A program made the translations under genes and the position numbers. Below are positions 1 through 14,650 of a DNA stretch of 32,000 nucleotides, one piece after another. The notes beneath the pieces were generated by a model. That model made no database searches and had not been told where the DNA came from. It saw only the letters and a program-made list of their open reading frames with translations. Source of the stretch: Methanococcoides orientis (GTDB lineage Archaea; Halobacteriota; Methanosarcinia; Methanosarcinales; Methanosarcinaceae). Within the stretch, counting starts at the first letter, position 1. Every line of letters starts with the position of its first letter. The DNA lies in NCBI RefSeq assembly GCF_021184045.1, contig NZ_CP073710.1:970685-1002684 (forward strand), in the 5' to 3' direction.

Positions 1-1248
1 TCGGGAAATGGAGGATTTTCTTTCCTTTTAACTGAAGACACCATGTACCCCAGATTGCGCATAAAGCAACTCAAGGGGAAGACCTACAACGTAGAGTTCA
101 CTAAAGCACGAAGAAAATCCGTAAAAAAAGGTAACTTCAAGGGTCACTTTTTAGATGTACAGCACCTGGCTTGCATACTTACCGATAGTAAGTCGTTGTC
201 ACTTGAGAGTGCTTGTGAAATGTTTGACACGCAGATAAAGAAAAAAGCAGAAAAAGAACATGGCAAAGTAACACCAAGGTACATAGAATACAACATTAAA
301 GATGTGAAAGCAACCTACGAGGTATTCCAAAAAGTACGGGAAGAGTTCAATAAATATCAGCTGAACATCCCGATGACAAAGGTGTACTCAGCCGCCTCTC
401 TGGGTAAGCAGGCGTTGAGACAATGCAGTCTTAAATCATTTTCAGAACAAAACCCTAAATTTCCCAGAAAAATCATAGGTAATATCATGGGTGCATACTA
501 TGGGGGCAGATGTGAAGTAAAGGTACGCAAAACCCCGGTCAAAGTAACAGTACTTGACTTCTTTAGTATGTATCCTACTGTGATGCTTCTCCTGGGTCAC
601 TGGGAGTTTCTCATTGCAGCAAAAATGCGATACAAAACTGATACCAAAGCAGTACAGGAATTCATTGATAACTTAACATTGGAAAAAGCTTTAGACAAAG
701 ATTCCTGGAAGCAAATGAATGTACTTGTTGAATTGCAACCAGATGATGATATCTTTCCAGTACGAACCAATTATGCTAATCAAGATACACGCAATATAGG
801 GATAAATCATATCACATACAAAGATTCACTTTATTATTTCCTGCCAGACGTACTTGCTTCAAAGCTTCTCGCAGGAAAATCACCACGAATCAAGAAAGCA
901 ATCCGATTTATTCCGGAAGGTGTTCAGAAAGGCCTGACTGAAACACAGATTTATGGCATTAAGATAGATCCGAAAAAGGATAATCTCATCAAATGCTTGG
1001 TGGAACACAGACAGGAAATAAAAAATGAAATGAGAGAAGTTGCAATAGATTCACATGATTACGAGATATTAGACTCCCAGCAAAGAGCAGTAAAAATTGT
1101 TAATAACTCAACGTCATATGGGATTTACCTAGAAGTAAACCCAAAAGAGGATGTTGAAGAATTAGAAATATTTAGCAACGCCAATTTCGATTCAATTGGT
1201 AAATATGAGCCACCTGGAGTTTTTTTTCCACCCCATAATCGGTGCTAA
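1..1248 (+). pseudogene. Family B DNA polymerase (protein-primed-like), N-terminal/middle fragment; 5' end lies outside the window; frame lost in T8 run at 1220-1227
   Basis: Frame 1 is open from nt 1 (SGNGGFSFLLTEDT precedes the listed Met at 43). Exo III-like motif YNIKDVKATY. Motif A-like VLDFFSMYPTVM (~nt 551-590). Motif B-like KIVNNSTSYGIY (~nt 1093-1128). The ORF ends 20 nt after the T8 homopolymer. Confidence 0.85.
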
Positions 1249-2515
1249 TATAACTGCAGGGTCTCGCCTTCTGCTTGCAATTGCTGAAAGATTTGTTCTG
1301 GAAAAAGGAGAGCTTCACACATACATGGACACGGATTCAATCTTTGTTCCTCCGCATCTTGCAGAGGAATTGAGTCATCTGTTCGATTCCTTAAATCCCT
1401 ACGACTTTGATAAACCCATCCTTGAGATTGAAGACGGGATGGATGATATCTGGTTCTATGGAATCAGTTCAAAGAGGTACTGCTTGTTCCATAAGGATGG
1501 GAAAGAGATCGTCATTCCTGGTGGAAAGAAGCTGTTCTATAAACTGCATGGTTTAGGACATATCACAAATCCTTTCAGCAGAGAACTTTGCGAAAAAGAT
1601 CATTGGCACAAACAGATTTGGTTGGATATACTCAAAGTCTATTACAATCCCGAACTTTTGAGTGGAATATTGGAGAAATACGAGAACTATTCAGTAATAT
1701 CGAACCTTTCAATCACCACAGCAAACCTCCACCGCAGATTTGAAAAACTGAACGATGGAAAATCTTTTGACAAACAGATAAAGCCATTTAACTTTATGCT
1801 TGTAGGGCAGGGGACTGTATCAAATAAAAAAGGTAGATCAGCTGTGCAGATAAAACCTATTACACCATTCAGCAAAAATCCTCAAGAAATCGTTGAATTG
1901 CCTTTTATCGACTATAAAACAGGAGATATTCTCCAAGGGAGACATTACTGGAAACCGCTCAGCGATGTTTTTGATAAATATATAAGTCACCCTGAAACCA
2001 AATTCGAGGGCGACATTGGTGTGCTCAAAAGAAGGCATCTGAATCCCAAAGGATGCATATACGTTGGTAAGGAATCCAACAACATAGATATGCAATGTCT
2101 TGAACAGTCGCAACTAGAAACATTCTATGACCTGGAATCACTGCAGGAGTATATACTTAATTTAACTCCCTCAAAGGCTAAAGAAATAGGGGTTAGCAAG
2201 AGTACTCTATTTAGTATGAAAATGAGAATAAAATCCCAAAAACTAAATCTCAATACATCAGCGGTGAAGAAACTTCTGGAGCATTTCTACAATGAAACAG
2301 AGAGCGTCTGTCCAGAGAAAAGACTACTTCAATCAGGTTACGATATGAATGATGTGATTAACTATGTTCGCAATCTAACTCCGAAAGAGGCAAAATCAAT
2401 TGGGATAAAGTACAGGAGTACACTCCAAAATCTAAAGAAAAGGGCTGAGCAGGGACAATTAAACCTTAACACATCAATAATGGATAAAGTTGTCACGCAT
2501 CTTCTGAATTGTTGA
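1196..2515 (+). pseudogene. Family B DNA polymerase, C-terminal fragment (palm motif C, KxY, thumb) plus two C-terminal HTH-like repeats
   Basis: The frame-2 ORF continues the polymerase directly after the T run with HPIIGANITAGSRLLLA. Motif C is YMDTDSIFV and the KxY motif is SSKRYCLF. Removing one T from 1220-1227 joins both ORFs as ...PPGVFFHPIIGANITAG... The listed Met at 1196 is probably not a real start. Confidence 0.85.
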
Positions 2516-2822: not shown

Positions 2823-2963
2823 ATGCGTTCTAAAGTAACTACGCAGATAGACGCTGACATTAAGTTGCTCTTTGATTCCACAAAAAAAGTACATGGGAAA
2901 TCTTACAGTGAAGTGCTTGAAAATGGAATACAAGAAATGTTGCGTGAGATCAAACCCATATAG
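2823..2963 (+). CDS. Small ribbon-helix-helix (CopG/Arc-like) protein, 46 aa (not in ORF track, below its length cutoff)
   Basis: My own translation is MRSKVTTQIDADIKLLFDSTKKVHGKSYSEVLENGIQEMLREIKPI. It shows a short N-terminal beta-strand pattern (KVTTQID) followed by two amphipathic helices split by a Gly-containing turn. The stop at 2961-2963 lies 3 nt before the ATG of the next ORF. Fold assignment is by pattern only. Confidence 0.45.
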   Translation: MRSKVTTQIDADIKLLFDSTKKVHGKSYSEVLENGIQEMLREIKPI

Positions 2964-2966
2964 ATA

Positions 2967-3287
2967 ATGAAAACCGAAATATCATATCTTAAAAGTTTAA
3001 TCGGTTTAGAAGAAGATAAAAATCAATATTTAAAGGGAACTAAACTGCAAAAGAATGATGATTCAGATATAATAGATCGGATAGGACAATTGAAACAGCA
3101 GATAGAACATGAATTGGAAACAATGCGCTTCCGTCTGTTTAATCTTACAAAAGACTTGATGTTAAGTATTGTAAAGGATGATTCAACAGACTGGTATTTT
3201 TATGCTCGCATTTACTCCTTTGATTCAGGGAATAAGGCAAAAGAGTGGGTTGTTGATAAGCTGAAATCTGAAGGTATGCTTCAATAA
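2967..3287 (+). CDS. Hypothetical protein, 106 aa, no family recognised (coiled-coil-like N-half, aromatic-rich C-half)
   Basis: ORF tightly coupled to the upstream RHH-like ORF. It is convergent with cas3, whose stop lies 11 nt away. No motif I can name. Confidence 0.55.
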   Translation: MKTEISYLKSLIGLEEDKNQYLKGTKLQKNDDSDIIDRIGQLKQQIEHELETMRFRLFNLTKDLMLSIVKDDSTDWYFYARIYSFDSGNKAKEWVVDKLKSEGMLQ

Positions 3288-3298
3288 AGATAGTATTT

Positions 3299-5953
3299 TT
3301 AAATAATAACTCCAATCATTGGGTTTTTTATTTCTTCTTTCAATTTTTCTAATCGTAAGCCATCTGTAAATGAATAATATTGTAAAAACTTTGGAGTTGA
3401 TAAAATAATATCAAATTTTTCATCTTTCTCTATTAGCCCTTCAGTCATAAGATATCCCAATATATCTTGACCATGAGCTTTATTTTTTATATTGATTATT
3501 GAAATAATGAATTGGTTGAGGAGACTAGTAATTTTTCTTCTGAGATATATATCTTTAAACTTATCAGTTGATGTTATGATTTCTTTCCAGACTTTGTATA
3601 CATTCTCAGTTACTACTTTCCCATTGCATATGATTTTATATTTTTTTTCTAACTTCTGAATTTCTGAATCACTTATAATAGACTCAATGTTATATCTGTC
3701 ATATTCTGACAGAAACTCTAGTGGAATGTCCTCACATACAAAAATATCTATTTTATCTAATTTATCATCAATTACATTCAGCTCATTGTTTATCGTTTGA
3801 TAATGTAGATCATTTATTTCACGATTTATTTTTTCAAATGAATCCTTTGCTATTTTTTTTAATTCATCTGATAAAATATGATAGTATTCATCGAATCTTT
3901 TGCAGATTAATATTTCTTTCATGTCGTTTTGGCTAATTTTTCTGGGGCTCAATATTTTGTATCGTTCTTGATCGGAATATATCTTCTTAGAATCTGCAAC
4001 TTTGCCATCTTTGTATTTTATGACGAAGAGTTTTGAAATACTTGCTTTCTTTTCATTACATTCTCTATTTATTCGTCCAGATATCTGTTCGATGCTATCT
4101 ATTATAGAGTAATCTCTAATACCAAAGTCGCAATCAATATCAACGCCTGCTTCTATAGATTGAGTCGAAACGATTATTATTCGTTCTTCTCTAGATTTAT
4201 TCTTTAGTTCCTCGATTAGTTTCTTTCTTCGCAAATTCGAGATGGTGCTATTCAACAAACAAAAAGAAAAATCATTAAACATTATATCAGAGGTCAGTTC
4301 TTCATATACTTTTCTTGAAGTATCAACCACATTTAAAGTTACAAGAACTTTTACGCTCCCTGTTTGGTAATTTGTGTTAATTTCTTCGATTAACAATTGT
4401 TTAATGCCCTCCATATCATTAATATCTAGTCTAAAATGAATTTCATTTCTTTTAAACAATTGATGGTTGTAATATTTTTGGGGATTACTGATTACTTGTG
4501 GAATTGCAGCATCATCTAAAAAAGAATTCAAATTCGGAAGTGTTGCACTCATAACAATGTAATATATATTAAAATTTTTACTTGTTTCACTGATAAAATT
4601 ATAAAAAACTCTTATATTTTTATCACTTAAGGTTTGTATCTCATCAATAATAACTATACTGTTGCATAAGTTAGCTATTTTATAACGATTGGTGCCACCA
4701 GTTTTTATGAAACAGTTGAAAAAGTTTACATTTGTAATTACATTTACACAATTATTTAAAAAATTATCATCCCGAATTATCATCATCTGCTTTAATTTAG
4801 AAATTGAATCTTCATCACCCATATCACGATATTTATCGACATATGCTCGCGAGTATATGTCTGAAACAAGACCTACTTTGTGAGGGAAGAACGAGTTTTC
4901 GAATAATGCATCATTTATAGCTTTGTAGTTCTGTTCTATAATATTGATGTAAGGAAATACATAAAACAAGCGCTTAACATTTTGATCATAGTCGAGAATA
5001 TTTAACGCCATTTTCATAGAAATATTTGTCTTCCCACCACCTGTAGGAATTGCCAACATAAATATTTTATTTCCTTCTTTTAGAAGTTTATTTGTACTTT
5101 TGTTGCATTCAATTAATATTTCTCTTCGCAGTTCATTTATATCATTGCAACAAGAATAATTTTTAAATTCGATTTGATCAATATCTGAGTTGTATGGTAT
5201 CTTTGAATAAGATTTGATCATTTTTTCTCGGATGTCTTGGTTTATAGTGTTTAAGGAGTACATCTCGTTCAATGAGTATGTGTAATGTAACGTTGAATAA
5301 GAATCGCTGAGAACAAGCAATGAATAAAGGAGCTTTACCAAAAGGAAGATTTTACTCCACTCAAAATTGCTCTTGAAAAATTCTCTTTTATTATCTTCGA
5401 GGAGTACTAACTCTCCAACATCTACTAAATGAAGAATTTTTTGAATAAGTTCTTTTTCTTCACGTGATGTGTCATCATCTTTAACGTGAAAATTAGTTAA
5501 ACTACTATGATGGGACCTAATAATATTAGCAAGTAAGTAGATAATCCCATGAGAATTTGGAAATTTTTTTAGTAAAAAAGAAGTTAATATTTTTTCTGAA
5601 AAAAGACTGTGATAGCTATTTCCTGATATCTTATTTCCTTTTACTTTCGCTATTTGGAAATTTGGATTTAGTTTTCCAACATCATGATAATATATTCCAT
5701 AAAGTATAATCTGCTTGATTTTATTTTGTTGTTTTTCTCCAAAAAGGTCGGAAATTAATTCGTCAAGTATAGGCTCAAGTTCCAATTTATCGATTATATG
5801 TAAAAAATATTTACCACATAATTCCAAATGATCTTCCAGGAATTCCAGATTATCTCCTTGTCTGTGAGCAGAATAAAATTGGTTGCATGGAACTAAGCTC
5901 TTATCCAAGATTATGAATAATTCATTGAAAGTATCAGAAGACATAGTAGACAT
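3299..5953 (-). CDS. cas3: CRISPR-associated helicase/nuclease Cas3 (HD domain fused to SF2 helicase)
   Basis: HD motifs YYHDVGKLNPNFQ and SHHS. Helicase motif I PTGGGKT, motif II IIDEIQ, motif III MSATLP, motif VI QISGRINR. Last gene of the cas6-cas8b-cas7-cas5-cas3 string. Confidence 0.93.
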   Translation of the reverse strand: MSTMSSDTFNELFIILDKSLVPCNQFYSAHRQGDNLEFLEDHLELCGKYFLHIIDKLELEPILDELISDLFGEKQQNKIKQIILYGIYYHDVGKLNPNFQIAKVKGNKISGNSYHSLFSEKILTSFLLKKFPNSHGIIYLLANIIRSHHSSLTNFHVKDDDTSREEKELIQKILHLVDVGELVLLEDNKREFFKSNFEWSKIFLLVKLLYSLLVLSDSYSTLHYTYSLNEMYSLNTINQDIREKMIKSYSKIPYNSDIDQIEFKNYSCCNDINELRREILIECNKSTNKLLKEGNKIFMLAIPTGGGKTNISMKMALNILDYDQNVKRLFYVFPYINIIEQNYKAINDALFENSFFPHKVGLVSDIYSRAYVDKYRDMGDEDSISKLKQMMIIRDDNFLNNCVNVITNVNFFNCFIKTGGTNRYKIANLCNSIVIIDEIQTLSDKNIRVFYNFISETSKNFNIYYIVMSATLPNLNSFLDDAAIPQVISNPQKYYNHQLFKRNEIHFRLDINDMEGIKQLLIEEINTNYQTGSVKVLVTLNVVDTSRKVYEELTSDIMFNDFSFCLLNSTISNLRRKKLIEELKNKSREERIIIVSTQSIEAGVDIDCDFGIRDYSIIDSIEQISGRINRECNEKKASISKLFVIKYKDGKVADSKKIYSDQERYKILSPRKISQNDMKEILICKRFDEYYHILSDELKKIAKDSFEKINREINDLHYQTINNELNVIDDKLDKIDIFVCEDIPLEFLSEYDRYNIESIISDSEIQKLEKKYKIICNGKVVTENVYKVWKEIITSTDKFKDIYLRRKITSLLNQFIISIINIKNKAHGQDILGYLMTEGLIEKDEKFDIILSTPKFLQYYSFTDGLRLEKLKEEIKNPMIGVII

Positions 5954-6698
5954 TACCTTCCGACATAATGAAATTCTCTGGATTCTTCAATTGTACCTTG
6001 CATTCTTTTTGTGGTATTGCCATTAGGTTATAAGTATACTTGAAATTATCATCAAAATCTACTGGAAGCATTTCAAGTTTTATATTGCCATTACCTTCTT
6101 TTTCTAGCTCATAGAAGGGGAAGATACTAGAGCACACCGTTTCTTTTCTAGAATTTATCTCATAATCTTTTAATGAAATATATTGAATATTCGCAAAAAA
6201 TTCATTTTTACCGAGATATATGTGAAAAACACTACGGTTATTCTGAATATTTTTAATTATTACTTTATGCAGTTCATTACTTTCGTCCAGCAGTAAGCCA
6301 ATTTCGTAATCTGGGTATAAAATCACCTGTTCATTTATAATTACGTTTGGAGAATCGGTGTCTTTTCTATTGTTCAGGAAACTGTTCAAGCTGTTATAAT
6401 TCACCGTAAATTTTCTATCAGAAATATTGTTAGACTTAATGAAAACTTTCAAATCACCAATTTTAGAATAAAATTCAGGTTCAATGGTCCTGTTTTTATA
6501 TCCTCCAAGACCAGCAATTGAACCAATAAGTCCCAGTAACTGAGGTTTTGGAATGATGGAATACGTGTTCCTGAAGCGATTGCTTATGGGTTGATTAAAA
6601 TGAGCAAAATTTCCATACAATCTAAAAGTCAGGAGTTTATTTGATTTATTGCCAATCTTATATTCTCCTGATGAAGAGTATTCCAGCTTTTGAGTCAT
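5934..6698 (-). CDS. cas5: CRISPR-associated protein Cas5, type I-B
   Basis: N-terminal Cas5 signature LTFRLYGNFAHFNQP...PKPQLLGLIGSIAGLGG. The ORF track starts at a GTG at 6722. I prefer the ATG at 6698 (MTQKLEY), which is preceded by AGGTG. It overlaps the cas3 start by 20 nt. Confidence 0.88.
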   Translation of the reverse strand: MTQKLEYSSSGEYKIGNKSNKLLTFRLYGNFAHFNQPISNRFRNTYSIIPKPQLLGLIGSIAGLGGYKNRTIEPEFYSKIGDLKVFIKSNNISDRKFTVNYNSLNSFLNNRKDTDSPNVIINEQVILYPDYEIGLLLDESNELHKVIIKNIQNNRSVFHIYLGKNEFFANIQYISLKDYEINSRKETVCSSIFPFYELEKEGNGNIKLEMLPVDFDDNFKYTYNLMAIPQKECKVQLKNPENFIMSEGNVYYVF

Positions 6699-6718
6699 GT
6701 AAGCACCTGATAAATTAG

Positions 6719-7603
6719 TCACTTCTCACTCGATTCCAGGGAATAAATATTTTTGACTTTATTGCTGTATTGCTCAAGTGAATCGTCAATGATTTCCTCT
6801 TTTATAATATCTATAACCTTTGAGTAATCTACAATCATTTCACCCTCTGATTCATAGACATCTACCAATGAGTTTAGGTTGTTGAAAATCCGATCATTTT
6901 TGTTCTTAAACCAAAGCGTGCTTACCGTTTCACAGCCAAACATGGTGGTGGAAGTTATTTCTCCCACTGCATATTTCAATGCATTTTTAAGTTTTTTGAT
7001 ATCATCATCCGACACTTTAATTCCTTGTTTCTCTGCAGAATTCATGTTAAGGCAGATGTCATATACGTAGTAAACGTCGTCTGCTCTGGCTTCATTTCCT
7101 ATTGTTGTCTTCTGAGCATCCTGGCTTTTCTCATTTGGATTTCTATAAGGGGACAATATATCGGAAGAATATATATTGGATCCATCTAACCTGTTCACAC
7201 CATAATTGATCTGACAAGGGCCTGTCATAGAAATATTACGTGTATCATCGCCACTGATTGCAAATACAACTCCAAACAATCGAACATCTATGAAACCTTT
7301 GAGGTCGCTAATAATCTCACTTTCATCTTTAGGCAGGGCACCTTTGTCACATTTTTTGAAATAATTCTCTTTTAATGTAAGGTATCGTTCTACCACTTCA
7401 TCCTCATTGCTTTTTTTATGAAACTCCTTGGTTCTCTGAACGAACACAGGTTCTTTTTTTGAAAGATACTCTCTTAAGCAATACTTCAACGCTTTATCAG
7501 TAGCAAATATCCTCCCGCTAGGCAGCCTTCTAGGGAGACCATCAAAACCTGCATTGAAACTCGCATTCTTTGCGTTTACAACAACCAAACCATTGTAGTT
7601 CAT
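6719..7603 (-). CDS. cas7: CRISPR-associated protein Cas7 (type I-B backbone subunit, Csh2-like)
   Basis: 294 aa, located between cas8b and cas5. The N-terminus VVNAKNASFNAGFDGLPRR...ATDKALKYCLR resembles the Cas7 RAMP N-terminal region. Its start directly abuts the cas8b stop. Confidence 0.8.
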   Translation of the reverse strand: MNYNGLVVVNAKNASFNAGFDGLPRRLPSGRIFATDKALKYCLREYLSKKEPVFVQRTKEFHKKSNEDEVVERYLTLKENYFKKCDKGALPKDESEIISDLKGFIDVRLFGVVFAISGDDTRNISMTGPCQINYGVNRLDGSNIYSSDILSPYRNPNEKSQDAQKTTIGNEARADDVYYVYDICLNMNSAEKQGIKVSDDDIKKLKNALKYAVGEITSTTMFGCETVSTLWFKNKNDRIFNNLNSLVDVYESEGEMIVDYSKVIDIIKEEIIDDSLEQYSNKVKNIYSLESSEK

Positions 7604-9505
7604 TTAATTATCCTCCTGTTGTGTAGATTCACGTTCTTCTTTTTCTTTTGTGGAAGAATAGAGATAGTTATCATCAAAGTAGCCTGTGTACAGAGAAATC
7701 TTGTTGTCCTCATATGACTTTTTGAATTCGAATGCTAGGACATTTTTAGTCAGATTGTGAAATCTCCGATTATTGTCAAGATATTCGTTATGAGAATACT
7801 TTTCAAGTACTGAAATTAACTTCTTTTTTAGCATGTCCATATTATGAACATTCATAGTATATTTTGTGAAGAGGTTTAACTTGTTCTTTCCTTTGTATTC
7901 CTGAACTAAGTAGTAAAATGCTTGTCCCATGCAGTAACTCGCTTCGAAATCATTCTCTATTTCAAAAGAGTCATTATCTTTCATTTTTTCTTTTAAAGCC
8001 ATGTATTCTGTAATGGTTTCGCCCCCGTTAGGTTCTATGTTTAGATACTTGTAGTAGATTGTAAGGAAGAAGCGGATTTTGTTAGGTCCGATCTTCATGT
8101 CATCACGAAGACCTGAATTTGTGATTAACTCAGAAAGCATTTCTCTGAATAGCTTTGAATAAATACAATCCTCAAAAAGGGAAACATCTTGAAAATACAA
8201 AAAGTTCCTAATAATTGAGTTGTATTCTATAATTTTCAGTTTAAGGAAAGGATGAAGTGTATCTCTCAACTTTTTCGGATTCTTTTCAAACAAGGACCCT
8301 ATAAGATTATTGTTAAAAATCAAGTTTAATTCTCTCAAAAATATTGATTTATCCCTTTCATTTTGAATGTATCTGATTGCTCCCTTCTTATTTTTATCAG
8401 GAAGCTCCTTTAAAGTTGAGTGTATCGAGATATCTTTAATATTAATAGTTGGTTTTATATTTTGAAGGTAGTAATTGAAATTATTAACATATGTGAATTC
8501 TATATCCTCAAGTTTCGGATTGGCAATCATCATCACATAATCAAATTCCTGAGATCGATTCCTGTCGTACAAAGATTTTAACATTTTTAAGATTCCAATA
8601 GGATCAGAAGAATAATCTCTGTAATCACTTGTCTCAACTGTTACAGTTGTGGGAAACACGTATCTGTAAAACTTGTATTTCTTGATGTATTCAAAATAAT
8701 CATAAATTTGTTTGGAACATTTTTCACATAAATTGAAATTTTCCGAACTTTTTGATTTCAAGTTAGACTTAAATCTTGTAGGATGCCTAAGAAGAAATTT
8801 CCTGTCTTTGGCCAGATCAAATATATTTCCAAAAGTCAACATATAAAGCTGACCCAATTCTCCACAGCTATCACAGTTTCCTTCAAATGTATTATATTTC
8901 AGAATTTTTTGCAGGGTATACTCTTCGATAGTAGCAATATAACTATCAATATCAGATTCATTTACAAGGAAAACGATTAAGTCATTTTCCCGTAGACCAA
9001 AAGTATTTTCAGGGTTTCTTGTATCAAAATTTCTAAAAAAACTCTCAACTCTATCACAGAGATTTGGGAATTGATTATAATACTCAGTTTTCTTGACTGA
9101 ATCTCTAAAAGAATCAACTTTTTTAGAAGGGATTTTTATAACCACATTTCCGTTTGGATGCTGTCGATTTATATTATCTTCATTTTTATCGAAGAAAACA
9201 TTAGTAAGTTTATAATGAGTGGGTGAATGACTTAAAAGTGCAGAATTGCTTCCAATATTGTTACTTCCTTTACGAGTGGGTCGCACAAACTTACTAGTAA
9301 AATATACAAGAGGATATTTTTCTAACAGTAAGATATCGTTTACCTCTTCTTCAATATCTGATCCACTAATAACAAATGGTGAGTCGCTTAAATTCGGAGG
9401 TACAATCAAAATTTTGGTCGTTTCATTTTTGGGTTCGGATTCATCTTCATTCAATAAAGCGTTATAGTCTTCTTCAGTAAACAAATTTACAATAAAATTG
9501 TACAT
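7604..9505 (-). CDS. cas8b: CRISPR-associated large subunit Cas8b, type I-B
   Basis: ~633 aa ORF in the canonical large-subunit position between cas6 and cas7. Cys4 cluster CDSC...CEKC. I prefer the ATG at 9505 (MYNFIVN), preceded by GGAGG, over the listed start at 9529. No separate cas11 gene is present. Confidence 0.78.
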   Translation of the reverse strand: MYNFIVNLFTEEDYNALLNEDESEPKNETTKILIVPPNLSDSPFVISGSDIEEEVNDILLLEKYPLVYFTSKFVRPTRKGSNNIGSNSALLSHSPTHYKLTNVFFDKNEDNINRQHPNGNVVIKIPSKKVDSFRDSVKKTEYYNQFPNLCDRVESFFRNFDTRNPENTFGLRENDLIVFLVNESDIDSYIATIEEYTLQKILKYNTFEGNCDSCGELGQLYMLTFGNIFDLAKDRKFLLRHPTRFKSNLKSKSSENFNLCEKCSKQIYDYFEYIKKYKFYRYVFPTTVTVETSDYRDYSSDPIGILKMLKSLYDRNRSQEFDYVMMIANPKLEDIEFTYVNNFNYYLQNIKPTINIKDISIHSTLKELPDKNKKGAIRYIQNERDKSIFLRELNLIFNNNLIGSLFEKNPKKLRDTLHPFLKLKIIEYNSIIRNFLYFQDVSLFEDCIYSKLFREMLSELITNSGLRDDMKIGPNKIRFFLTIYYKYLNIEPNGGETITEYMALKEKMKDNDSFEIENDFEASYCMGQAFYYLVQEYKGKNKLNLFTKYTMNVHNMDMLKKKLISVLEKYSHNEYLDNNRRFHNLTKNVLAFEFKKSYEDNKISLYTGYFDDNYLYSSTKEKEERESTQQEDN

Positions 9506-9617
9506 ATTTCCTCCAAATCTACAACACACTATACCATTTCACTCTTCAAAACACTCTTGTGTATCATGACACCGTATCCTATGTACGCTTAAACATTTAC
9601 CAAGTAAGAGGAAATAT

Positions 9618-10340
9618 TCACACAACCTCCAAACATCCAAACCCCATGGCATTCTTCTCCCCTAACCCTGCATCATATGCAAACCTTACAATCTCAGGAC
9701 TAGCCTCAAGTTCCAGAGTCATCAAACTACATCTCCTGAAACTATTGCCTATCGAAACGCGTTTTGGCTTGAAGTTCTTCACTTCCAGCACTTCAAAATG
9801 ATCATGCTCAACCTTGTGACCGTAGTATTCCTCGTACCTTGACGTAAGGTTCGTATGGACATTTTCATAAAACTTCGAGTCCTTTGGATACAAATCAATT
9901 TCAACAAGTTTTCCGTCCTTCTTCCTCATCGTTTTTGCATATACAGGAGAGAGGGTTGTAAACTTGCAGGACTCAGACATCTCCAGCTGAGGTATTATTT
10001 CTATACGCTCAATTATGAAATTTGCTTTTTTGACTCTTCCAAGGAAGAACTCTGGCTCGAGAAGCAAACCTTCCGTGAAGCTGCGAATGAACTCCGAGTC
10101 TGGTGAGGATATGAAAAAGTGTGCTTTATTGAAATCCAAACCATGTTTGTTCGGAATCCTATCCTCGATTATGAGATTCGAAAATGTATAGAACTTGAAA
10201 CCCTGGTGACTATGTGTCTTGTCTGCTAAAGTGATATTTGCACTGGCAAGCCGTGCGTAGAGCATTGATGCTAAACCATACTGATAATCGTAATGAATAT
10301 GATTGTTCGTTGTTTTTTGTATGGTTACCTTGCATCGCAT
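9618..10340 (-). CDS. cas6: CRISPR repeat endoribonuclease Cas6
   Basis: 240 aa. The C-terminal glycine-rich loop GLGEKNAMGFGCLEVV is typical of Cas6. It is the first gene downstream of the array trailer on the minus strand. Confidence 0.9.
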   Translation of the reverse strand: MRCKVTIQKTTNNHIHYDYQYGLASMLYARLASANITLADKTHSHQGFKFYTFSNLIIEDRIPNKHGLDFNKAHFFISSPDSEFIRSFTEGLLLEPEFFLGRVKKANFIIERIEIIPQLEMSESCKFTTLSPVYAKTMRKKDGKLVEIDLYPKDSKFYENVHTNLTSRYEEYYGHKVEHDHFEVLEVKNFKPKRVSIGNSFRRCSLMTLELEASPEIVRFAYDAGLGEKNAMGFGCLEVV

Positions 10341-10443
10341 GGTATATGAAACAACTTAATATAATTTATATGTTTTGAAAATATTCGAGCGAAATCATCT
10401 CATAAATATAATCTGTTTTTACCAATTATATTGAGATTATGTT

Positions 10444-10473
10444 TGTTCAATCCCCGTAATGTTTGAGTATGAC
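10444..10473 (-). repeat. Strongly decayed extra CRISPR repeat beyond the trailer end (19/30 identities)
   Basis: TGTTCAATCCCCGTAATGTTTGAGTATGAC aligns to the repeat consensus and retains the TTCAATCCC core. It lies 37 bp (one spacer length) from the degenerate repeat at 10511. Confidence 0.5.
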
Positions 10474-10510
10474 ATTATACTTAAAGGTATTATATGTAAT
10501 CTATATAGGT

Positions 10511-12334
10511 ATACTTGTCCCTCTTTGGTCTGATTTTAACGCTTGACGAAACTCTCCTGAACGCTTTCACCTATCTTGATTTCAATCCCACAATGATCTG
10601 ATTTTAACGCACCGCCCTTATGGACACGTAATAAAGCTAACAAATTTCAATCCCACAATGGTCTGATTTTAACCAGTAATATTAATGTCATGCCCTCGCT
10701 TGCAACATGTTTTATTTCAATCCCACAATGGTCTGATTTTAACTGAATACACTCCAAGAACGAGATTAATATCAATTGAATTTCAATCCCACAATGGTCT
10801 GATTTTAACTCGTTTCCAACTTGCAGACGGAACAAATCTTGACCAAATTTCAATCCCACAATGGTCTGATTTTAACTATTCTTGTCTTCCTCGCTTCCCT
10901 CTTCACTTCCGCATTTCAATCCCACAATGGTCTGATTTTAACGAACAAAAGCACGTTTTGTAGATTGGTAGATAAGGCATTTCAATCCCACAATGGTCTG
11001 ATTTTAACATTTTATTGATAGTTAACATTAATTCGTTTCCTCCATTTCAATCCCACAATGGTCTGATTTTAACACCAAACGCAAAAACGACAGATGGAGT
11101 TTCAGCAGAATTTCAATCCCACAATGGTCTGATTTTAACATTATAGCCCCCCACAACTGCCGCGCTGGTTACTGCATTTCAATCCCACAATGGTCTGATT
11201 TTAACCCTGTACAAAACTGTACAAAGTTAGTATGAAACTTAATTTCAATCCCACAATGGTCTGATTTTAACCCGAATCTCAATATTAGGTGTAAGCTCGT
11301 TATCATATTTCAATCCCACAATGGTCTGATTTTAACAAAGATAAAGCCGATTCTATGAACGCTTTTAGAAATATTTCAATCCCACAATGGTCTGATTTTA
11401 ACTATTAATTTTGATTTCACAGCAAATGTTCATTATACATTTCAATCCCACAATGGTCTGATTTTAACACGAATCGATAAACATCCTCAGTTGAAATATC
11501 ATATCATTTCAATCCCACAATGGTCTGATTTTAACCTTTGATCCTGATGATACCCTGAAAACCTTTACATTAATTTCAATCCCACAATGGTCTGATTTTA
11601 ACGAGGAATTAATTCCTCTTAAATATTACATTCATCAATATTTCAATCCCACAATGGTCTGATTTTAACCCAAAACGGATCTTCCGGTTCAAATCTATCA
11701 ACTATATTTCAATCCCACAATGGTCTGATTTTAACAAAAATCCTTGTTTCTCATTAATATTTGATACAATATTTCAATCCCACAATGGTCTGATTTTAAC
11801 CGTCTTTAATGAAGTCACCCTGCTTGTTCTTGGCAGATTTCAATCCCACAATGGTCTGATTTTAACTCAAATGCCGAAGCTGTCCCGGTGCAAATTAACA
11901 ATATTTCAATCCCACAATGGTCTGATTTTAACCATTGCGGCAGTGACGAATAAACCGTTCTATTTCAAATTTCAATCCCACAATGGTCTGATTTTAACAA
12001 AATTGTCACCAACCACAGAAACCTGCTGAATGGTATTTCAATCCCACAATGGTCTGATTTTAACGTTCATGTTTGCCGTACGATCCGGCAGGATACTTCA
12101 TTTCAATCCCACAATGGTCTGATTTTAACGATGTCAGTGATTGTCGTCTGTGGTTCCTCGACTACTGATTTCAATCCCACAATGGTCTGATTTTAACATT
12201 AATATTTGTTGGTTTGGGCGGGAATGTATTGCATACAGATTTCAATCCCACAATGGTCTGATTTTAACGGGCTAATTATATCGCTATTGAAGAAACTATA
12301 TTATATTTCAATCCCACAATGGTCTGATTTTAAC
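10511..12334 (-). CRISPR. CRISPR array, 28 x 30-nt repeats, 27 unique spacers of 35-41 bp (modal 36); transcribed on the minus strand
   Basis: The repeat on the plus strand is ATTTCAATCCCACAATGGTCTGATTTTAAC, which reads GTTAAAATCAGACCATTGTGGGATTGAAAT in transcript sense. I located every repeat by hand. Starts are 10511(deg), 10579(1 mismatch), 10644, 10714, 10780, 10847, 10913, 10979, 11044, 11110, 11176, 11242, 11307, 11373, 11439, 11506, 11573, 11640, 11706, 11771, 11837, 11903, 11969, 12035, 12100, 12168, 12239 and 12305. Repeat decay at the low-coordinate end and the ATTGAAAT 3' end set the orientation. Confidence 0.97.
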
Positions 12335-12526
12335 CAAGCTCATTTGGCCATATTTTACCCAACAAATTTGATCTATTGAAAAGCATCTATGCATTTATAG
12401 ATGGCTTTTTTCACAACTAAAGTTCTATTTTCTATTATAAAAAAACGTTCATCGGAAGCAAAAATTAAAACTTGTTTTCGGGGATTCCTTATTTTGCGTC
12501 TCCTATATAAGCATCCACGAAAAGGA
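12335..12526 (-). promoter_or_regulatory. CRISPR leader (AT-rich, between the cas2 stop and the first perfect repeat)
   Basis: 192-bp AT-rich non-coding stretch abutting the perfect-repeat end of the array. On the minus strand it has TATA-like elements (TTATATAGG, complement of 12503-12512; TTTTTTTATAATAG). A 7-bp inverted repeat CATCTAT-N6-ATAGATG lies at 12384-12403. Confidence 0.6.
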
Positions 12527-12790
12527 TTAAATGATTGAGTCTATTTCAGCTGGTCTGGACCCTAATTCATCTAACATGAGATACTTTTTATCTCTGACAT
12601 GGTAGATGAAAACACTATCTTCCTCTTCATTGATTATCTTCTTTAATTGGGACTATACTCTCAGATACTCGGCTTTTGTGAGTTCTCCTTCAAGTACACT
12701 ATTTTGCACCCAGTTGAGATATTGTTTTAAGAAAACACGCACTTTGTTTAAGCGTTCTACGCCAACATCATAGACAACAATCACATACAT
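12527..12790 (-). pseudogene. cas2: CRISPR-associated endoribonuclease Cas2 with in-frame TAG at codon 46 (12653-12655); pseudogene or amber read-through/pyrrolysine candidate
   Basis: My translation is [86 protein letters not shown]. It shows canonical Cas2 hallmarks (VVVYDV, WVQNSV.EGE, DSV.IY) on both sides of the TAG, in the same frame. The start lies 1 nt after the cas1 stop. It is absent from the ORF track because each half is under 60 aa. Confidence 0.88.
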
Positions 12791-12791
12791 C

Positions 12792-13793
12792 TTACCACCA
12801 CATCACAAGTGGTTTGTATGCTTCATCATCAAGTACGTGTTTTGATAGCTTGTAAAGCTCCAGCCGAATCAGTCGTTTATATGAAACATTTCGCTTCAAA
12901 CCTTTATGTTTGATAGTAGTAGACAACTTAGCATTATATTCTTGCAAAAAGACTTTTTTACCTTTTTCACTCAATAGCATATCCCCGATCTCCCCCATGA
13001 AGCAACTATCATCTAGCATATTCTTGTTTACAAGTTTGAGTATGATTCTATCTATTATGATAGGTTTGAAAATCTCACTTACATCAAGAGCAAGAGAAAA
13101 ACGACGTTCAAAGGGTTCGTGAAGGTATGATATAGTTGGATTTAATTGGGTGTTATAGATCTCAGAGAGCACTGTAGTGTACATCAAAGAATTGCCGAAA
13201 CTTATGAGTGTATTCATTTTATTACTTGGGGGGCGTCTGGTCCTTGTTATAATCCGATAATCCTCAGGAAATATTTCATCCAATGCACTATAGTATATGT
13301 TTCGTATGCGTCCCTCGACATTCATCATACTCGATATCGAGTCTGCATTAGGTAGGCGAGTAAACTCCGATTCTATTGAATTTATATGTTCATCCAGACT
13401 ATCCTGAAGACCATCTTTGCTCCTTGAGTAGTACCTCAAATTTTTGAGAATATTACCACAGGCTCCCTCGATGAATTTCCCTGCCAAAAACATTCTTTTT
13501 TCAGTATCGAGGTAATGAGATGCTTGTTTAATGACGAGATCTCCACTGATTAGCGTCTCTCGCGGGTACATACTGCCTTCGTAGAAACCATAATAATTAA
13601 AAAAGTGTATGGGGATGCCATTCTTTGCAAGGTATGAGACTACTCCTGATGATAAAGACAATCTGCCGTATGCATAAATCGAATATATCTTATTTATAGG
13701 TAAGACCCGCTTTTCATCCTTGTTCACAAAATAGACCGTGTTTTCTTTTCGCTTTAAGGTACCATCCTGCAAGATGTAATAATCTGTTCGCAT
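12792..13793 (-). CDS. cas1: CRISPR-associated integrase Cas1
   Basis: 333 aa. Catalytic-region motifs [17 protein letters not shown] and [11 protein letters not shown]. The C-terminal KPLVMWW is typical of I-B-type Cas1. It is flanked by cas4 and cas2. Confidence 0.95.
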
Positions 13794-13835: not shown

Positions 13836-14405
13836 TTAATCGTCATCGACTTCACCACAAAAACAGAACTCAAAATACGCACATTTCGAACAGATACGTA
13901 GGCGTTTAGGATGTGGCATCCTTCCTGTAACGATTTCTTCAATGTGTTCAATATCATTTTCTATTTTCTTTTCATCATCTTCTGTCAGTACAATTTCCTT
14001 GGTCTGGTTCAGCAGAGGGTAGTTCATAACACCCTGAGCATCAATTCCCCTCTGCTTAAGATAATAAATGTAGTAGAGCATTTGGCGTAAATGGGCATCT
14101 TCCATTTTTTTAGTTTTTTTGATATCGTGCAATTCTATGATGTCATTTCGCTTTTTCACAAAATCAATACTTATCGTATTGTCGATAGTAATATCTTTTT
14201 TATTTTTGCTATAGCGATCTTCATGGAGTAATTTTCCGATATTGACATTCTCGTCCTCACGTTCAAGAACAATGTTGTGGGAAAAAAGCCAGAGCTTGGT
14301 ATGACAGATGTGGTAATAGTTAATCTTGACACCTGTTATTTTTACGTAGGGTGTTAATGCAGTTGGTATGTCTTTAGATGTTGACAGACAATTTGAACCC
14401 ATCAA
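13836..14405 (-). CDS. cas4: CRISPR-associated exonuclease Cas4 (RecB-like, Fe-S)
   Basis: 189 aa. An N-terminal Cys (YHICHTKLW) plus the C-terminal CSKCAYFEFC cluster give the 4-Cys Fe-S pattern. QxxxY motif within LRQMLYYIYYL. Located upstream of cas1. Confidence 0.88.
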   Translation of the reverse strand: MMGSNCLSTSKDIPTALTPYVKITGVKINYYHICHTKLWLFSHNIVLEREDENVNIGKLLHEDRYSKNKKDITIDNTISIDFVKKRNDIIELHDIKKTKKMEDAHLRQMLYYIYYLKQRGIDAQGVMNYPLLNQTKEIVLTEDDEKKIENDIEHIEEIVTGRMPHPKRLRICSKCAYFEFCFCGEVDDD

Positions 14406-14650
14406 TATATAATTATATAAAACAATATTTAAATTATTTGCAAAGTTTTACCTAAAGATAGTACTGTTTGGATTAAATACGTATGGTCAAATATCTTAAA
14501 GAAGTAGAATCATTAACATTCTGATTTTTTTAGAGAATTTTATATATTATTGTATTTTTTAAAAAATATATTTAAAAAAAACAACTTCATAAAAATTTAA
14601 CGTACAAAAAAGTCCAATTTTTTTATTTCTTATATATCCCAAAAGAAAAG

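What the first reader, a model, noticed from the sequence alone, without database searches (positions are those of the whole stretch)
1..2515. Frameshifted protein-primed-type PolB next to a complete type I-B CRISPR-Cas locus
The two ORFs at 1-1248 and 1196-2515 are a single family B polymerase.
- The Exo III, A, B, C and KxY motifs all occur in the right order.
- About 170 aa separate motifs A and B, as in protein-primed PolBs with a TPR1 insertion.
- The gene is split by one extra T in a T8 homopolymer (1220-1227). Deleting one T gives the continuous sequence ...PPGVFFHPIIGANITAGSRLL....
- Both halves otherwise look intact, with no additional stops.

The lesion is therefore a very recent mutation, a homopolymer sequencing error, or, less likely, a slippage-dependent expression switch.

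Protein-primed PolBs in archaea mark self-synthesizing mobile elements such as casposons, pipolin-like elements, linear plasmids and viruses. Finding one convergent with cas3 brings to mind the casposon-origin scenario for CRISPR adaptation modules. It could also mark an MGE that carries, or landed next to, the I-B system.
Basis: partly seen in the sequence, partly recalled or inferred. Interest (0 to 1): 0.72.

Follow-up and report, generated by a model that had tools for sequence, protein, structure and literature searches.

The report
Broken casposon polymerase; CRISPR-Cas inside casposon
The split gene is the DNA polymerase of a decaying casposon (a Cas1-dependent self-replicating transposon) sitting at a tRNA-Leu gene, and the whole neighbouring type I-B CRISPR-Cas locus lies between that polymerase and the casposon's own terminal repeat, an arrangement I did not find described.

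Summary
Window 1-2515 is one family B polymerase gene, split by one extra T in a T8 run (1220-1227). All motifs are in order and there is no other lesion.

The window comes from Methanococcoides orientis. The polymerase is not a virus or plasmid protein-primed PolB. It is the PolB of a family-2 casposon, and the conserved module (casposase, HTH/HEAT protein, RHH, 187-aa protein, HNH-like protein, PolB) is found in about ten related loci.

The main result lies outside the finding's coordinates. At 14608-14654 there is a casposase integration junction: terminal repeat ending 5'-TATATCCC, then the 14-bp target AAAAGAAAAGTGCG, which overlaps the last 4 bp of tRNA-Leu(UAA). Synteny with relatives and a GC step (about 34% to 45%) both break there. 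No other terminus or target copy occurs in 1-14,600. The I-B locus therefore sits inside casposon-derived DNA, in the arm where sister casposons carry defence cargo.

M. methylutens has the same PolB-RHH-106aa-cas junction at a different chromosomal site.

The element looks immobilised: PolB is frameshifted, no intact casposase was found, and cas2 carries an in-frame TAG. The left border is outside the window and could not be read, so transposable cargo versus a composite island remains open.

The parts
1..1248 (+). Casposon PolB, N-terminal part (frame 1). The gene starts about 405 nt left of the window. Contains ExoIII (289-318), motif A (553-579) and motif B (1093-1122). Ends at a premature TAA at 1246-1248.
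   Evidence: 100% identical to P0021 (J7W08_04820)
1220..1227 (+). T8 homopolymer holding the +1 insertion that splits PolB.
   Evidence: M. methylutens has TTTATTT, 7 nt
1166..2515 (+). Casposon PolB, C-terminal part (frame 2). Contains motif C (1322-1339), KxY (1466-1480) and two C-terminal HTH repeats (2162-2221, 2375-2437).
   Evidence: HTH repeats resemble the casposase C-terminal HTH, z=11.9
2823..2963 (+). 46-aa RHH-like ORF (TAG stop), conserved with M. methylutens.
   Evidence: no family hit
2967..3287 (+). 106-aa orphan ORF (J7W08_04835). Homology with the M. methylutens element ends at its stop codon.
3299..5953 (-). cas3 (HD plus helicase), convergent with PolB.
5934..6722 (-). cas5 (Cas5h-like, I-B).
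6719..7603 (-). cas7 (Csh2-like, I-B).
7604..9529 (-). cas8b large subunit, assigned by position and 65% identity to the M. burtonii I-B locus.
9618..10340 (-). cas6.
10446..12334 (-). CRISPR array. The repeat is GTTAAAATCAGACCATTGTGGGATTGAAAT on the - strand, with 27 identical copies plus degenerate trailer repeats at the cas6 end. 26 spacers were extracted.
12335..12526 (-). Leader between cas2 and the array, homologous to the M. burtonii leader region.
12527..12790 (-). cas2 with an in-frame TAG at codon 46.
12792..13793 (-). cas1 (I-B Cas1b). It is 26% identical to the casposase of the M. methylutens element.
13836..14405 (-). cas4.
14608..14640 (-). Casposon terminal inverted repeat. Read outside-in it is GGGATATATAAGAAATAAAAAAATTGGACTTTT; on the + strand it ends ...TATATCCC.
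   Evidence: PMC6977970
14641..14654 (.). 14-bp casposase target / target-site-duplication copy AAAAGAAAAGTGCG (5'-CGCA... on the tRNA strand). It overlaps the last 4 bp of the tRNA gene.
   Evidence: PMC4779613, PMC6977970
14651..14735 (-). tRNA-Leu(UAA), the integration target. Syntenic chromosome begins here.

Best explanation
The gene at 1-2515 is the family B polymerase of a family-2 casposon integrated at the 3' end of tRNA-Leu(UAA) in Methanococcoides orientis.

**How such an element works (established for the family).** A Cas1-family casposase joins the element's 3' ends (5'-TATATCCC) to a 14-bp target beginning 5'-CGCA at the end of a tRNA-Leu gene, and this duplicates the target. The element's own PolB is thought to copy it.

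**What is shown here.**
- The PolB-side arm of this copy, between PolB plus two small ORFs and the terminal repeat, holds a full type I-B CRISPR-Cas locus of about 11 kb. Sister casposons carry 1-3 kb of defence cargo in that arm.
- The island runs from left of the window to 14,640. It would be about 19-20 kb if the left arm matches the M. methylutens copy.

**What is inferred.**
- The CRISPR-Cas locus was captured into the casposon's cargo arm. Its gene order is a circular permutation of the canonical locus, so capture may have gone through a circular intermediate.
- The composite has since been immobilised. PolB took a +1 T in a T7 run, no intact cognate casposase is annotated in the genome, and cas2 has an amber codon.

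The frameshift is most simply a recent slippage mutation in a decaying element, not a regulatory device.
For: **PolB identity**
- Pfam DNA_pol_B_2 and DNA_pol_B match.
- The repaired protein is 87% identical to intact P0001.

**Casposon membership**
- In M. methylutens (L001) and in L002-L005, L009-L011 and L024, the PolB sits in the conserved module: casposase of about 400 aa (-), 272 aa (-), 51-aa RHH, 187 aa, 131 aa HNH-like, PolB.
- In M. orientis the 272-aa gene is J7W08_04800 and the 106-aa gene is J7W08_04835. Accessions run consecutively from UGV41608 to UGV41623, which fits that order.
- The PolB C-terminal HTH repeats resemble the casposase C-terminal HTH (z=11.9, 0 of 2000 shuffles). 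This is a family-2 hallmark (PMC4046053).

**Right border**
- 14608-14640 aligns with the terminal repeats of L002-L005, L011 and NM1.
- It ends TATATCCC and is followed by AAAAGAAAAGTGCG, which overlaps 4 bp of tRNA-Leu. This is the junction geometry described for M. mazei (PMC6977970, PMC4779613).
- Methanococcoides sp. NM1 uses the identical 14-mer at the orthologous tRNA, with a copy flanking each end of its casposon.

**Island limits**
- All 14 genes checked to the right of the tRNA are syntenic and intact against M. methylutens.
- GC is 28-39% left of the tRNA and 41-52% right of it.

**No internal border**
- There is one GGGATATA and one copy of the target (at most 2 mismatches) in the whole window.

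**Cargo slot**
- L004 carries ApeA/HEPN and L005 a caspase-like protein between PolB and the terminal repeat. NM1 carries GmrSD plus HEPN next to its other terminal repeat.

**Linkage elsewhere**
- Window 1-3287 is 87% identical in DNA to L001 10409-13694, and there too it is followed directly by a I-B operon and an array with the same repeat.
- That locus lies next to ABC1 kinase and cytochrome c genes, not at the tRNA-Leu/MBL site.

**Decay**
- The only M. orientis casposase in the protein database (P0304, 69% identical) has an accession close to the second PolB, P0009.
- cas2 carries TAG at codon 46.
Against: - The left end (left terminal repeat, second target copy, casposase) is outside the window. 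The M. orientis genome was in none of the DNA collections. An element bounded by two matching repeats is therefore not demonstrated.
- This tRNA-Leu site is a hot spot. It holds tandem elements (NM1) and old relics with solo terminal repeats (M. methylutens L028, MAG L034). The repeat at 14,640 could belong to a different, older insertion.
- The M. methylutens copy has no recognisable termini, is flanked by two inverted arrays, and has a different effector subtype in the opposite orientation. This points to recombination rather than clean casposition of a fixed composite.
- The effector genes have lower GC (28-32%) than the casposon core (38-39%).
- Only two genomes show the association. None of 11 other casposon loci examined does.
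- A homopolymer sequencing error cannot be excluded for the frameshift.
Confidence: 0.62

Rival explanations
1. Composite island built by separate events. The terminal repeat at 14,608-14,640 is left over from another casposon insertion at this hot spot. The CRISPR-Cas locus arrived by ordinary recombination between that relic and a second, PolB-bearing casposon, or internal borders were deleted. On this view CRISPR-Cas was never cargo that a casposase could move.
For: - Tandem casposons and solo-repeat relics exist at the orthologous tRNA-Leu site.
- CRISPR-Cas modules have clearly been shuffled. The effector subtype and orientation differ between M. orientis and M. methylutens, and the gene order is circularly permuted.
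- GC content is heterogeneous within the island.
- The M. methylutens copy lacks termini.
Against: - No second terminus or target copy occurs anywhere in 1-14,600. In NM1 such junctions are perfectly preserved.
- cas4 starts only about 200 bp inside the terminal repeat, so whichever element owns that repeat had CRISPR-Cas at its tip.
- The PolB-RHH-106aa block abuts cas genes in two species at two non-orthologous sites.
Confidence: 0.28
2. The frameshift is an assembly or sequencing artefact (true sequence T7), so PolB is intact and the casposon polymerase is functional.
For: - The lesion is a single base in an 8-nt homopolymer, the classic error context.
- Both halves are otherwise intact and 87% identical to an intact orthologue.
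Against: - All 14 neighbouring chromosomal genes checked align end to end without frame breaks, so indel errors are not pervasive.
- Other lesions in the same island are not homopolymer errors: a CAG-to-TAG change in cas2, and no intact cognate casposase in the proteome.
Confidence: 0.2
3. The T8 run is a slippage-dependent expression switch. Transcriptional or +1 translational slippage would yield some full-length PolB.
For: - A run of 8 U/T is long enough for some polymerase or ribosome slippage in general (own knowledge).
- The overlap of the two frames (1166-1248) is short and clean.
Against: - The run is not conserved. The closest orthologue has TTTATTT and a single open frame, and every other full-length homologue retrieved is a single ORF.
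- No stimulatory structure or motif was looked for or noticed.
Confidence: 0.04
4. The polymerase is a protein-primed PolB of a virus, linear plasmid or pipolin-like element, not of a casposon.
For: - Pfam DNA_pol_B_2 match.
- 180 aa between motifs A and B.
- phi29 polymerase gives the best target-normalised TM-score (0.53-0.55).
Against: - Gene neighbourhood in about ten relatives is the casposon core with a casposase.
- No tblastn hit in 50,697 phage or 72,556 plasmid records, nor in IMG/VR.
- Profile hits to solved structures are all RNA/DNA-primed PolBs.
- The KxY motif is standard (SSKRY). From my own recollection, unchecked here, piPolBs have KTRG at this position.
- No capsid, terminal-protein or tyrosine-recombinase gene was seen.
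Confidence: 0.03

Closest known systems
Family-2 casposons of Methanosarcinales (MetMaz, Met2HT1A3 and MetBur-C1 to C3 elements; Krupovic et al. 2014 and 2016, Hickman et al. 2020)
   Same: - Core genes: casposase with C-terminal HTH, PolB with C-terminal HTH, HNH-like protein, HTH/HEAT protein.
- Terminal repeat of about 32 nt ending 5'-TATATCCC.
- 14-bp target beginning CGCA and overlapping the last 4 bp of a tRNA-Leu gene.
- Either orientation, tandem insertions, and frequent inactivated copies with a broken polB.
   Different: - Described elements are 6-16 kb. [quoted passage not shown]
- Here about 11 kb of I-B CRISPR-Cas (cas1, cas2, cas4, cas3/5/6/7/8 and a 27-repeat array) lies between PolB and the terminal repeat.
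- The left end was not seen.
Integrated mobile elements that carry type I-B CRISPR-Cas (thaumarchaeal cryptic integrated elements NitVie-E4 and NitEve-E4, PMC6563490; also prophage-, plasmid- and Tn7-borne systems)
   Same: A complete I-B locus with adaptation and effector modules, carried inside an integrated element at a tRNA-type site.
   Different: - Those carriers use tyrosine integrases or Tn7 machinery.
- Here the carrier is a Cas1-dependent transposon, so the island would hold two Cas1-family integrase genes.
- There is no sign of RNA-guided transposition as in CASTs: cas3, cas1, cas2 and cas4 are all present.
Pipolins (piPolB elements) as defence-island platforms (PMC11551731)
   Same: A self-synthesising element with a PolB, integrated at a tRNA gene, whose variable arm collects defence systems.
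   Different: - Different polymerase group and different integrase (tyrosine recombinase versus casposase).
- Bacterial rather than archaeal.
Koonin-Krupovic scenario for the origin of CRISPR adaptation (a casposon lands beside an effector locus, is immobilised and loses polB; PMC6452270)
   Same: A casposon physically fused to a Cascade-type effector operon, with signs of immobilisation and polB decay.
   Different: - This is a secondary, recent association.
- The locus already has its own canonical Cas1-Cas2-Cas4 and array, 61-89% identical to the chromosomal M. burtonii system.
- The casposase is 26% identical to that Cas1.

Membership tests
Family B DNA polymerase | Exo I-III and polymerase motifs A (DxxSLYPS-like), B (KxxxNSxYG), C (DTDS) and KxY, in order; Pfam family match | tested here: met
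   Motif coordinates. ExoI and ExoII are in the part left of the window (P0021). PF03175 matches at 1.5e-15 and PF00136 at 1.8e-7.
Protein-primed PolB (pPolB) | Sequence-family membership (Pfam DNA_pol_B_2, 'organellar and viral') | tested here: met
   57.5 bits against a cut-off of 25.8; 59.9 bits for P0001. The match covers only ExoIII to motif A.
Protein-primed PolB (pPolB) | TPR1 and TPR2 insertions; fold closer to phi29/PRD1-type than to RNA-primed PolBs | tested here: inconclusive
   The AlphaFold model (pLDDT 80.9) has a roughly 125-aa insertion between motif A and the fingers, and a beta-hairpin between motifs B and C. Foldseek gives Pol alpha at 3.7e-12, phi29 at 3.3e-11 (TMt 0.54) and archaeal PolB at about 1e-10. 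A profile search of the PDB finds only RNA/DNA-primed PolBs.
Protein-primed PolB (pPolB) | Terminal protein gene and a linear virus or plasmid context | tested here: not met
   The context is the casposon core. No phage, plasmid or IMG/VR relatives were found. No terminal-protein candidate was identified, although such proteins are hard to recognise.
Family-2 casposon | Cas1-family casposase with C-terminal HTH, next to polB | not testable with these tools
   Met in the 87%-identical M. methylutens element (400-aa Cas1, L001 6560-7762) and in 8 further loci. In M. orientis the position is left of the window, and no intact casposase of that clade from this genome is in the protein database.
Family-2 casposon | PolB carries a C-terminal HTH like that of the casposase | tested here: met
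   Two HTH repeats at 2162-2221 and 2375-2437. Local alignment to the casposase C-terminus scores 69 against a shuffle mean of 21 (z=11.9).
Family-2 casposon | Core accessory genes: HNH endonuclease and two HTH proteins, one with helical repeats | tested here: inconclusive
   The 272-aa, 51-aa RHH, 187-aa and 131-aa genes are conserved across loci. The 272-aa orthologue is present in M. orientis (J7W08_04800). The 131-aa protein has a CxxC..HH..CxxCH pattern that aligns with the NM1 HNH protein, but not significantly (E=0.52), and it has no Pfam hit.
Family-2 casposon | Terminal inverted repeats ending 5'-TATATCCC | tested here: inconclusive
   The right repeat is present and aligns with those of six related elements. 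The left repeat is outside the window.
Family-2 casposon | 14-bp target-site duplication starting 5'-CGCA and overlapping the 3' end of a tRNA-Leu gene | tested here: inconclusive
   The tRNA-proximal copy is at 14641-14654 with exactly this geometry. The identical 14-mer flanks each end of the NM1 casposon at the orthologous tRNA. The distal copy in M. orientis was not seen.
Family-2 casposon | Insertion relative to related genomes (synteny break at the target) | tested here: met
   The right flank is syntenic with M. methylutens, NM1 and two MAG/metagenome contigs, and synteny ends at the tRNA. There is a GC step at the same point. The left-flank comparison was not possible.
Type I-B CRISPR-Cas | cas3, cas5, cas6, cas7 and cas8b, plus cas1, cas2 and cas4, plus an array with leader | tested here: met
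   Pfam and NCBIfam hits. All genes are 61-89% identical to the canonical M. burtonii I-B locus. The array is shown. Caveats: cas2 has an in-frame TAG and the gene order is circularly permuted.
Pipolin / piPolB | piPolB-type polymerase with a tyrosine recombinase | tested here: not met
   The KxY motif is standard (SSKRY), and the neighbours are casposon genes. That piPolBs carry an altered motif at this position is my own recollection and was not checked here.

The most novel reading that the evidence does not exclude
A casposon has captured a complete CRISPR-Cas system (adaptation module, effector module and array) as cargo and, at least until recently, moved it as one unit. The descendants of the transposon family credited with founding CRISPR adaptation would then also act as vehicles for whole CRISPR-Cas loci. 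Two Cas1-family integrases with different targets (14-bp tRNA site versus CRISPR leader-repeat) would coexist in one element. The presence of the same PolB-RHH-106aa-cas block at non-orthologous sites in M. orientis and M. methylutens would be the trace of that mobility.
Probability: 0.3. Interest if true: 0.8.

Novelty: new variant of a known kind. Interest (0 to 1): 0.62.

Why it matters
Casposons matter mainly as the proposed source of Cas1 and of CRISPR adaptation. In the literature I searched they are described as carrying no Cas2, and I found none described with effector genes or arrays.

A casposon-bounded island that encloses a full I-B system would have three consequences:
- It would add casposons to the list of vehicles that spread CRISPR-Cas among archaea.
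- It would extend the 'self-synthesising element as defence-island platform' idea from bacterial pipolins to archaeal casposons. Sister elements here carry ApeA, caspase-like, GmrSD and HEPN cargo.
- It would offer a natural system for asking how a casposase and a CRISPR Cas1-Cas2 coexist without cross-integration.

It also gives a living example of the 'casposon next to Cascade, then immobilised, then polB decays' trajectory that the origin scenario postulates.

If the composite proves to be only a patchwork at a hot spot, the finding reduces to an ordinary, decaying casposon beside a CRISPR locus.

Tried and rejected
**Attempts to read the sequence left of the window (all failed)**
- Exact-protein look-ups of Cas3 and P0021 returned nothing on record.
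- The genome-contig scan returned 26 relatives but neither M. orientis nor M. methylutens.
- An IMG/VR exact-pattern scan found nothing.

**Searches for more copies of the composite (none found)**
- 106-aa protein in metagenome contigs: none.
- Window terminal-repeat 27-mer in metagenomes: none.
- PolB in IMG/VR: none.
- Cluster look-ups: only M. orientis and M. methylutens.
- 1.84 billion protein representatives: one orthologue and one marginal hit.

**Sampling of other casposons**
- L002-L011, L024, L029, L031 and L032 were checked for cas effector genes or the CRISPR repeat. None had either.

**Search for internal casposon borders in 1-14,600**
- Relaxed terminus and target motifs gave only chance-level hits. 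One example is 2554-2567, with 4 of 14 mismatches in A-rich sequence. These were rejected.

**Search for a terminal repeat in M. methylutens L001**
- Nothing resembled either the consensus or the window's repeat.

**Spacer targets**
- No match to any fetched casposon locus.
- No match to phage or plasmid collections.
- No match for three spacers in IMG/VR.
- 'CRISPR aimed at rival casposons' therefore has no support.

**Other points**
- Left-flank orthologues of M. methylutens gave no M. orientis accession in the 90% clusters, so the island size could not be counted from annotation.
- The degenerate mini-array beside the M. methylutens casposase could be read as casposase-linked adaptation. 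I did not pursue this. The mini-array is more simply explained as the displaced trailer end of the main array after an inversion, and the far side of that locus could not be fetched.
Full report
**1. The observation**

The window has a frame-1 reading frame open from base 1 to a TAA at 1246-1248. A frame-2 reading frame is open from 1166 (first start codon 1196) to a TGA at 2513-2515. The only T8 run in the region is at 1220-1227. Removing one T gives a continuous 837-codon frame.

- ExoIII at 289-318.
- Motif A at 553-579.
- Motif B at 1093-1122.
- Motif C at 1322-1339.
- KxY at 1466-1480.
- Motifs A and B are 180 residues apart.

Pfam gives DNA_pol_B_2 (1.5e-15) and DNA_pol_B (1.8e-7). The repaired protein is 87% identical along its full length to an intact 973-aa protein of Methanococcoides methylutens (P0001). 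The frame-1 product is 100% identical to an annotated 551-aa protein of Methanococcoides orientis (P0021, J7W08_04820). This identifies the source genome and shows that about 135 codons, with ExoI and ExoII, lie left of the window.

At the lesion M. methylutens reads GGAG-TTTATTTCC where the window reads GGAGTTTTTTTTCC.

**2. What the polymerase belongs to**

In M. methylutens (locus L001) the orthologous polB is preceded by a divergently oriented 400-aa Cas1 homologue and a 272-aa protein. It is also preceded by co-oriented 51-aa (RHH), 187-aa and 131-aa genes.

tblastn finds the same six-gene module in Methanolobus, other Methanosarcinales, Thermoplasmatota and Iainarchaeia loci, and two bacterial loci have a Cas1 homologue at the same position. 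Several loci hold two copies. The 400-aa Cas1 is 26% identical to the window's CRISPR Cas1, so it is a casposase.

In L002 and L003 both ends of the element can be read:
- The terminal repeats follow the consensus GGGATATATAyAAcGnnAAAAAAGTGTACGC.
- They are flanked by 14-nt direct duplications.
- In L002, L004 and L011 they abut tRNA-Leu genes.

These are the published properties of family-2 casposons:
- A five-gene core with a C-terminal HTH on both Cas1 and PolB (PMC4046053).
- 14-bp duplications beginning CGCA, tRNA-Leu targets, both orientations, tandem insertions, and inactivated copies with a broken polB (PMC4779613).
- Casposon ends 5'-TATATCCC, with the last 4 bp of the tRNA lying inside the duplication (PMC6977970).

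The window's PolB has two C-terminal HTH repeats that align with the casposase C-terminus far better than shuffled controls (z=11.9).

Cluster look-ups place the M. orientis orthologue of the 272-aa gene at J7W08_04800, PolB-N at 04820 and the 106-aa ORF at 04835. Protein accessions run consecutively (UGV41608 to UGV41615), which leaves exactly the expected slots for the 51-, 187- and 131-aa genes and the second PolB half.

**3. Protein-primed or not**

The evidence is mixed.
- Pfam's 'organellar and viral' family is matched above threshold, but only over ExoIII to motif A.
- A profile of 40 homologues searched against all solved structures hits only RNA/DNA-primed enzymes, and only around motif B. 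The best hit is the Pyrobaculum calidifontis PolB 5MDN.
- An AlphaFold model of P0001 (pLDDT 80.9, pTM 0.80) shows a roughly 125-residue insertion between motif A and the finger helices. It also shows a hairpin between motifs B and C, at the positions of TPR1 and TPR2 in phi29.
- Foldseek ranks Pol alpha, engineered Thermococcus PolBs and phi29 polymerase within one order of magnitude of E-value. phi29 has the best target-normalised TM-score, 0.53-0.55.
- There is no tblastn similarity to any phage or plasmid record, nor to IMG/VR.

This agrees with Kazlauskas et al. (PMC7544198). They put the Aciduliprofundum casposon PolB in a divergent cluster related to both the main PolB group and the pPolBs. 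The priming mode is therefore undecided, and 'protein-primed-type' is not established.

**4. The surroundings: where the element ends**

The window contains a single tRNA, tRNA-Leu(UAA), at 14651-14735 on the minus strand. Immediately beside its 3' end the sequence reads ...AAAAGTCCAATTTTTTTATTTCTTATATATCCC | AAAAGAAAAGTGCG | GGGGGAGGG.

The stretch 14608-14640 aligns column for column with the terminal repeats of the Methanolobus and Methanococcoides casposons and ends in TATATCCC. The next 14 nt read 5'-CGCACTTTTCTTTT on the tRNA strand and overlap the last four bases of the tRNA gene. This is a casposase integration junction.

In Methanococcoides sp. NM1 a different casposon, in the opposite orientation and with GmrSD and HEPN cargo, sits at the orthologous tRNA. 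The identical 14-mer flanks each of its ends. On its left it abuts the terminal repeat of yet another element.

Several lines place the island boundary at the tRNA:
- To the right, all 14 genes compared are syntenic and uninterrupted against M. methylutens. They have ordinary housekeeping functions.
- GC content steps from 28-39% to 41-52% at the tRNA.
- Inside 1-14,600 there is no other GGGATATA terminus and no other copy of the target, even with two mismatches. Relaxed searches give only chance-level hits.

**5. What lies between PolB and that terminus**

After PolB come a 46-aa RHH-like ORF (2823-2963) and a 106-aa orphan ORF (2967-3287). Eleven bases later the type I-B locus begins, all on the minus strand:
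- cas3 (3299-5953), cas5, cas7, cas8b and cas6 (to 10340).
- An array at 10446-12334, with 27 identical 30-nt repeats and degenerate trailer repeats at the cas6 end.
- A leader, then cas2 (12527-12790), cas1 (12792-13793) and cas4 (13836-14405).

Every protein is 61-89% identical to the canonical chromosomal I-B locus of M. burtonii, which uses the same repeat. The gene order, however, is a circular permutation: cas4-1-2-leader-array-cas6-8-7-5-3 instead of cas6-8-7-5-3-4-1-2-leader-array. cas2 carries an in-frame TAG at codon 46, where M. burtonii has Gln, and is otherwise conserved.

The arm between PolB and the terminal repeat is where sister casposons carry variable genes, some of them defence genes. 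L004 carries ApeA with a HEPN domain, and L005 a caspase-like protein. The CRISPR-Cas locus therefore occupies the casposon's cargo slot.

**6. The M. methylutens counterpart**

Window 1-3287 is 87% identical in DNA to L001 10409-13694, and the similarity stops exactly at the stop codon of the 106-aa ORF. There, too, a I-B operon follows at once, but it differs in several ways:
- It is inverted, so cas6 comes first. That Cas6 is 72% identical in protein to the window's.
- It is of the Cst1/Cst2/Cas5t variant rather than the Csh2/Cas5h-like variant.
- It is followed by a long array of the same repeat.
- A degenerate seven-repeat array in the opposite orientation lies beyond the casposase.

No casposon terminus is present anywhere in the 22.9 kb. 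The locus is flanked on the left by ABC1 kinase and cytochrome c genes. Their M. orientis orthologues have distant accessions.

The M. methylutens tRNA-Leu(UAA)/MBL site instead holds an old relic: casposase fragments and a solo repeat ending TATATACC. The same relic is present in a related MAG.

The casposon core and a I-B locus are therefore joined at the same point in two species, at non-orthologous chromosomal positions. The CRISPR part has been recombined heavily. Among the 13 casposon loci inspected, only these two show the association.

**7. State of the element**

- PolB is frameshifted.
- A profile search with casposase plus Cas1 recovered many Methanococcoides casposases 83-89% identical to the M. 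methylutens one. From M. orientis it recovered only a 69%-identical protein (P0304, UGV39822). That accession lies close to the genome's second casposon PolB (P0009, UGV39818). The cognate casposase is therefore absent or a pseudogene.
- cas2 has an amber codon. In a pyrrolysine-decoding methanogen this may be partly read through (own knowledge).

The frameshift fits a picture of recent decay. Because all 14 chromosomal genes compared are intact, pervasive indel error is unlikely. A single homopolymer error still cannot be excluded without reads.

**8. Interpretation and limits**

The best-supported reading is a family-2 casposon at tRNA-Leu(UAA) whose cargo arm contains a complete I-B CRISPR-Cas locus, now immobilised.

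The robust part is that the CRISPR-Cas locus is embedded in casposon-derived DNA. The casposon core lies on one side, and a genuine casposase junction lies about 200 bp beyond cas4 on the other.

The uncertain part is whether both belong to one element bounded by matching repeats. The left end is outside the window, and I could not obtain the genome from any collection. This tRNA site demonstrably accumulates tandem and relic casposons, which keeps a patchwork origin alive. The absence of any internal border argues against it.

Spacers gave no clue to function. They matched no casposon, phage, plasmid or IMG/VR sequence tested.

**9. Novelty**

The polymerase, its frameshift and the casposon are ordinary for this family; broken polB genes in tandem or relic casposons are described in PMC4779613. 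I did not find in the literature a casposon enclosing cas1-cas2-cas4, an effector operon and an array. [quoted passage not shown] MGE-borne I-B systems are known only for other kinds of carrier (PMC6563490).

I therefore class it as a new variant of a known kind. Interest is moderate to high, conditional on the unseen left border.

Noticed in passing
window 12527-12790 (- strand): cas2 has an in-frame TAG at codon 46, where M. burtonii Cas2 has Gln (CAG). The rest of the 87 codons is 77% identical with no further stops. It is either a fresh amber pseudogene or is read through as pyrrolysine in this Pyl-decoding methanogen.
   Followed up: partly
window 3299-14405 versus L030 2293-12825: The I-B locus is a circular permutation of the canonical M. 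burtonii order. The adaptation genes, leader and array now precede cas6-8-7-5-3 on the same strand. This would fit capture through a circular intermediate.
   Followed up: partly
L001 5741-6151 and 19935-22922: In M. methylutens MM1 the casposon core plus a Tneap-type I-B effector operon is flanked by two arrays of the same repeat in inverted orientation. The left array is degenerate and lies 400 bp from the casposase stop. No CRISPR-type Cas1 from this genome appeared among the top 120 Cas1-family hits.
   Followed up: partly
L029 361-420 and 9800-9840: Methanococcoides sp. NM1 has a casposon at the same tRNA-Leu(UAA), and the 14-mer AAAAGAAAAGTGCG flanks each of its ends. At its left end the terminal repeat of a second element abuts that 14-mer. 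The casposon carries GmrSD and HEPN genes next to the casposase-side repeat.
   Followed up: yes
L028 5986-6305, 9709-9740 and 9870-9925; L034 4688-4753 and 5008-5039: M. methylutens and a related MAG share a relic at the same site. It consists of casposase fragments and a solo terminal repeat with a mutated end (TATATACC). In M. methylutens there is also a partial duplicate of the tRNA-Leu gene. HxlR, hydrolase, CofH and cupin genes lie between the Cas1 fragment and the solo repeat.
   Followed up: partly
L004 12591-13934; L005 12568-14277: Related Methanolobus casposons carry defence-type cargo between PolB and the terminal repeat: an ApeA (HEPN) protein in L004 and a caspase-domain protein in L005.
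   Followed up: yes
window 2823-3287: A 46-aa RHH-like ORF and a 106-aa ORF form a tight pair, 3 nt apart, like a small regulator or toxin-antitoxin cassette. The 106-aa protein is an orphan, with one orthologue and one marginal hit among 1.84 billion representatives.
   Followed up: yes
window 19313-20362: An AstE/AspA-family (succinylglutamate desuccinylase/aspartoacylase) gene sits between rimK and the CNNM gene. It has no counterpart in the otherwise collinear M. methylutens block.
   Followed up: no
window 26891-28810 and 29078-31009: Two tandem paralogous hydantoinase/oxoprolinase-family genes (639 and 643 aa).
   Followed up: no
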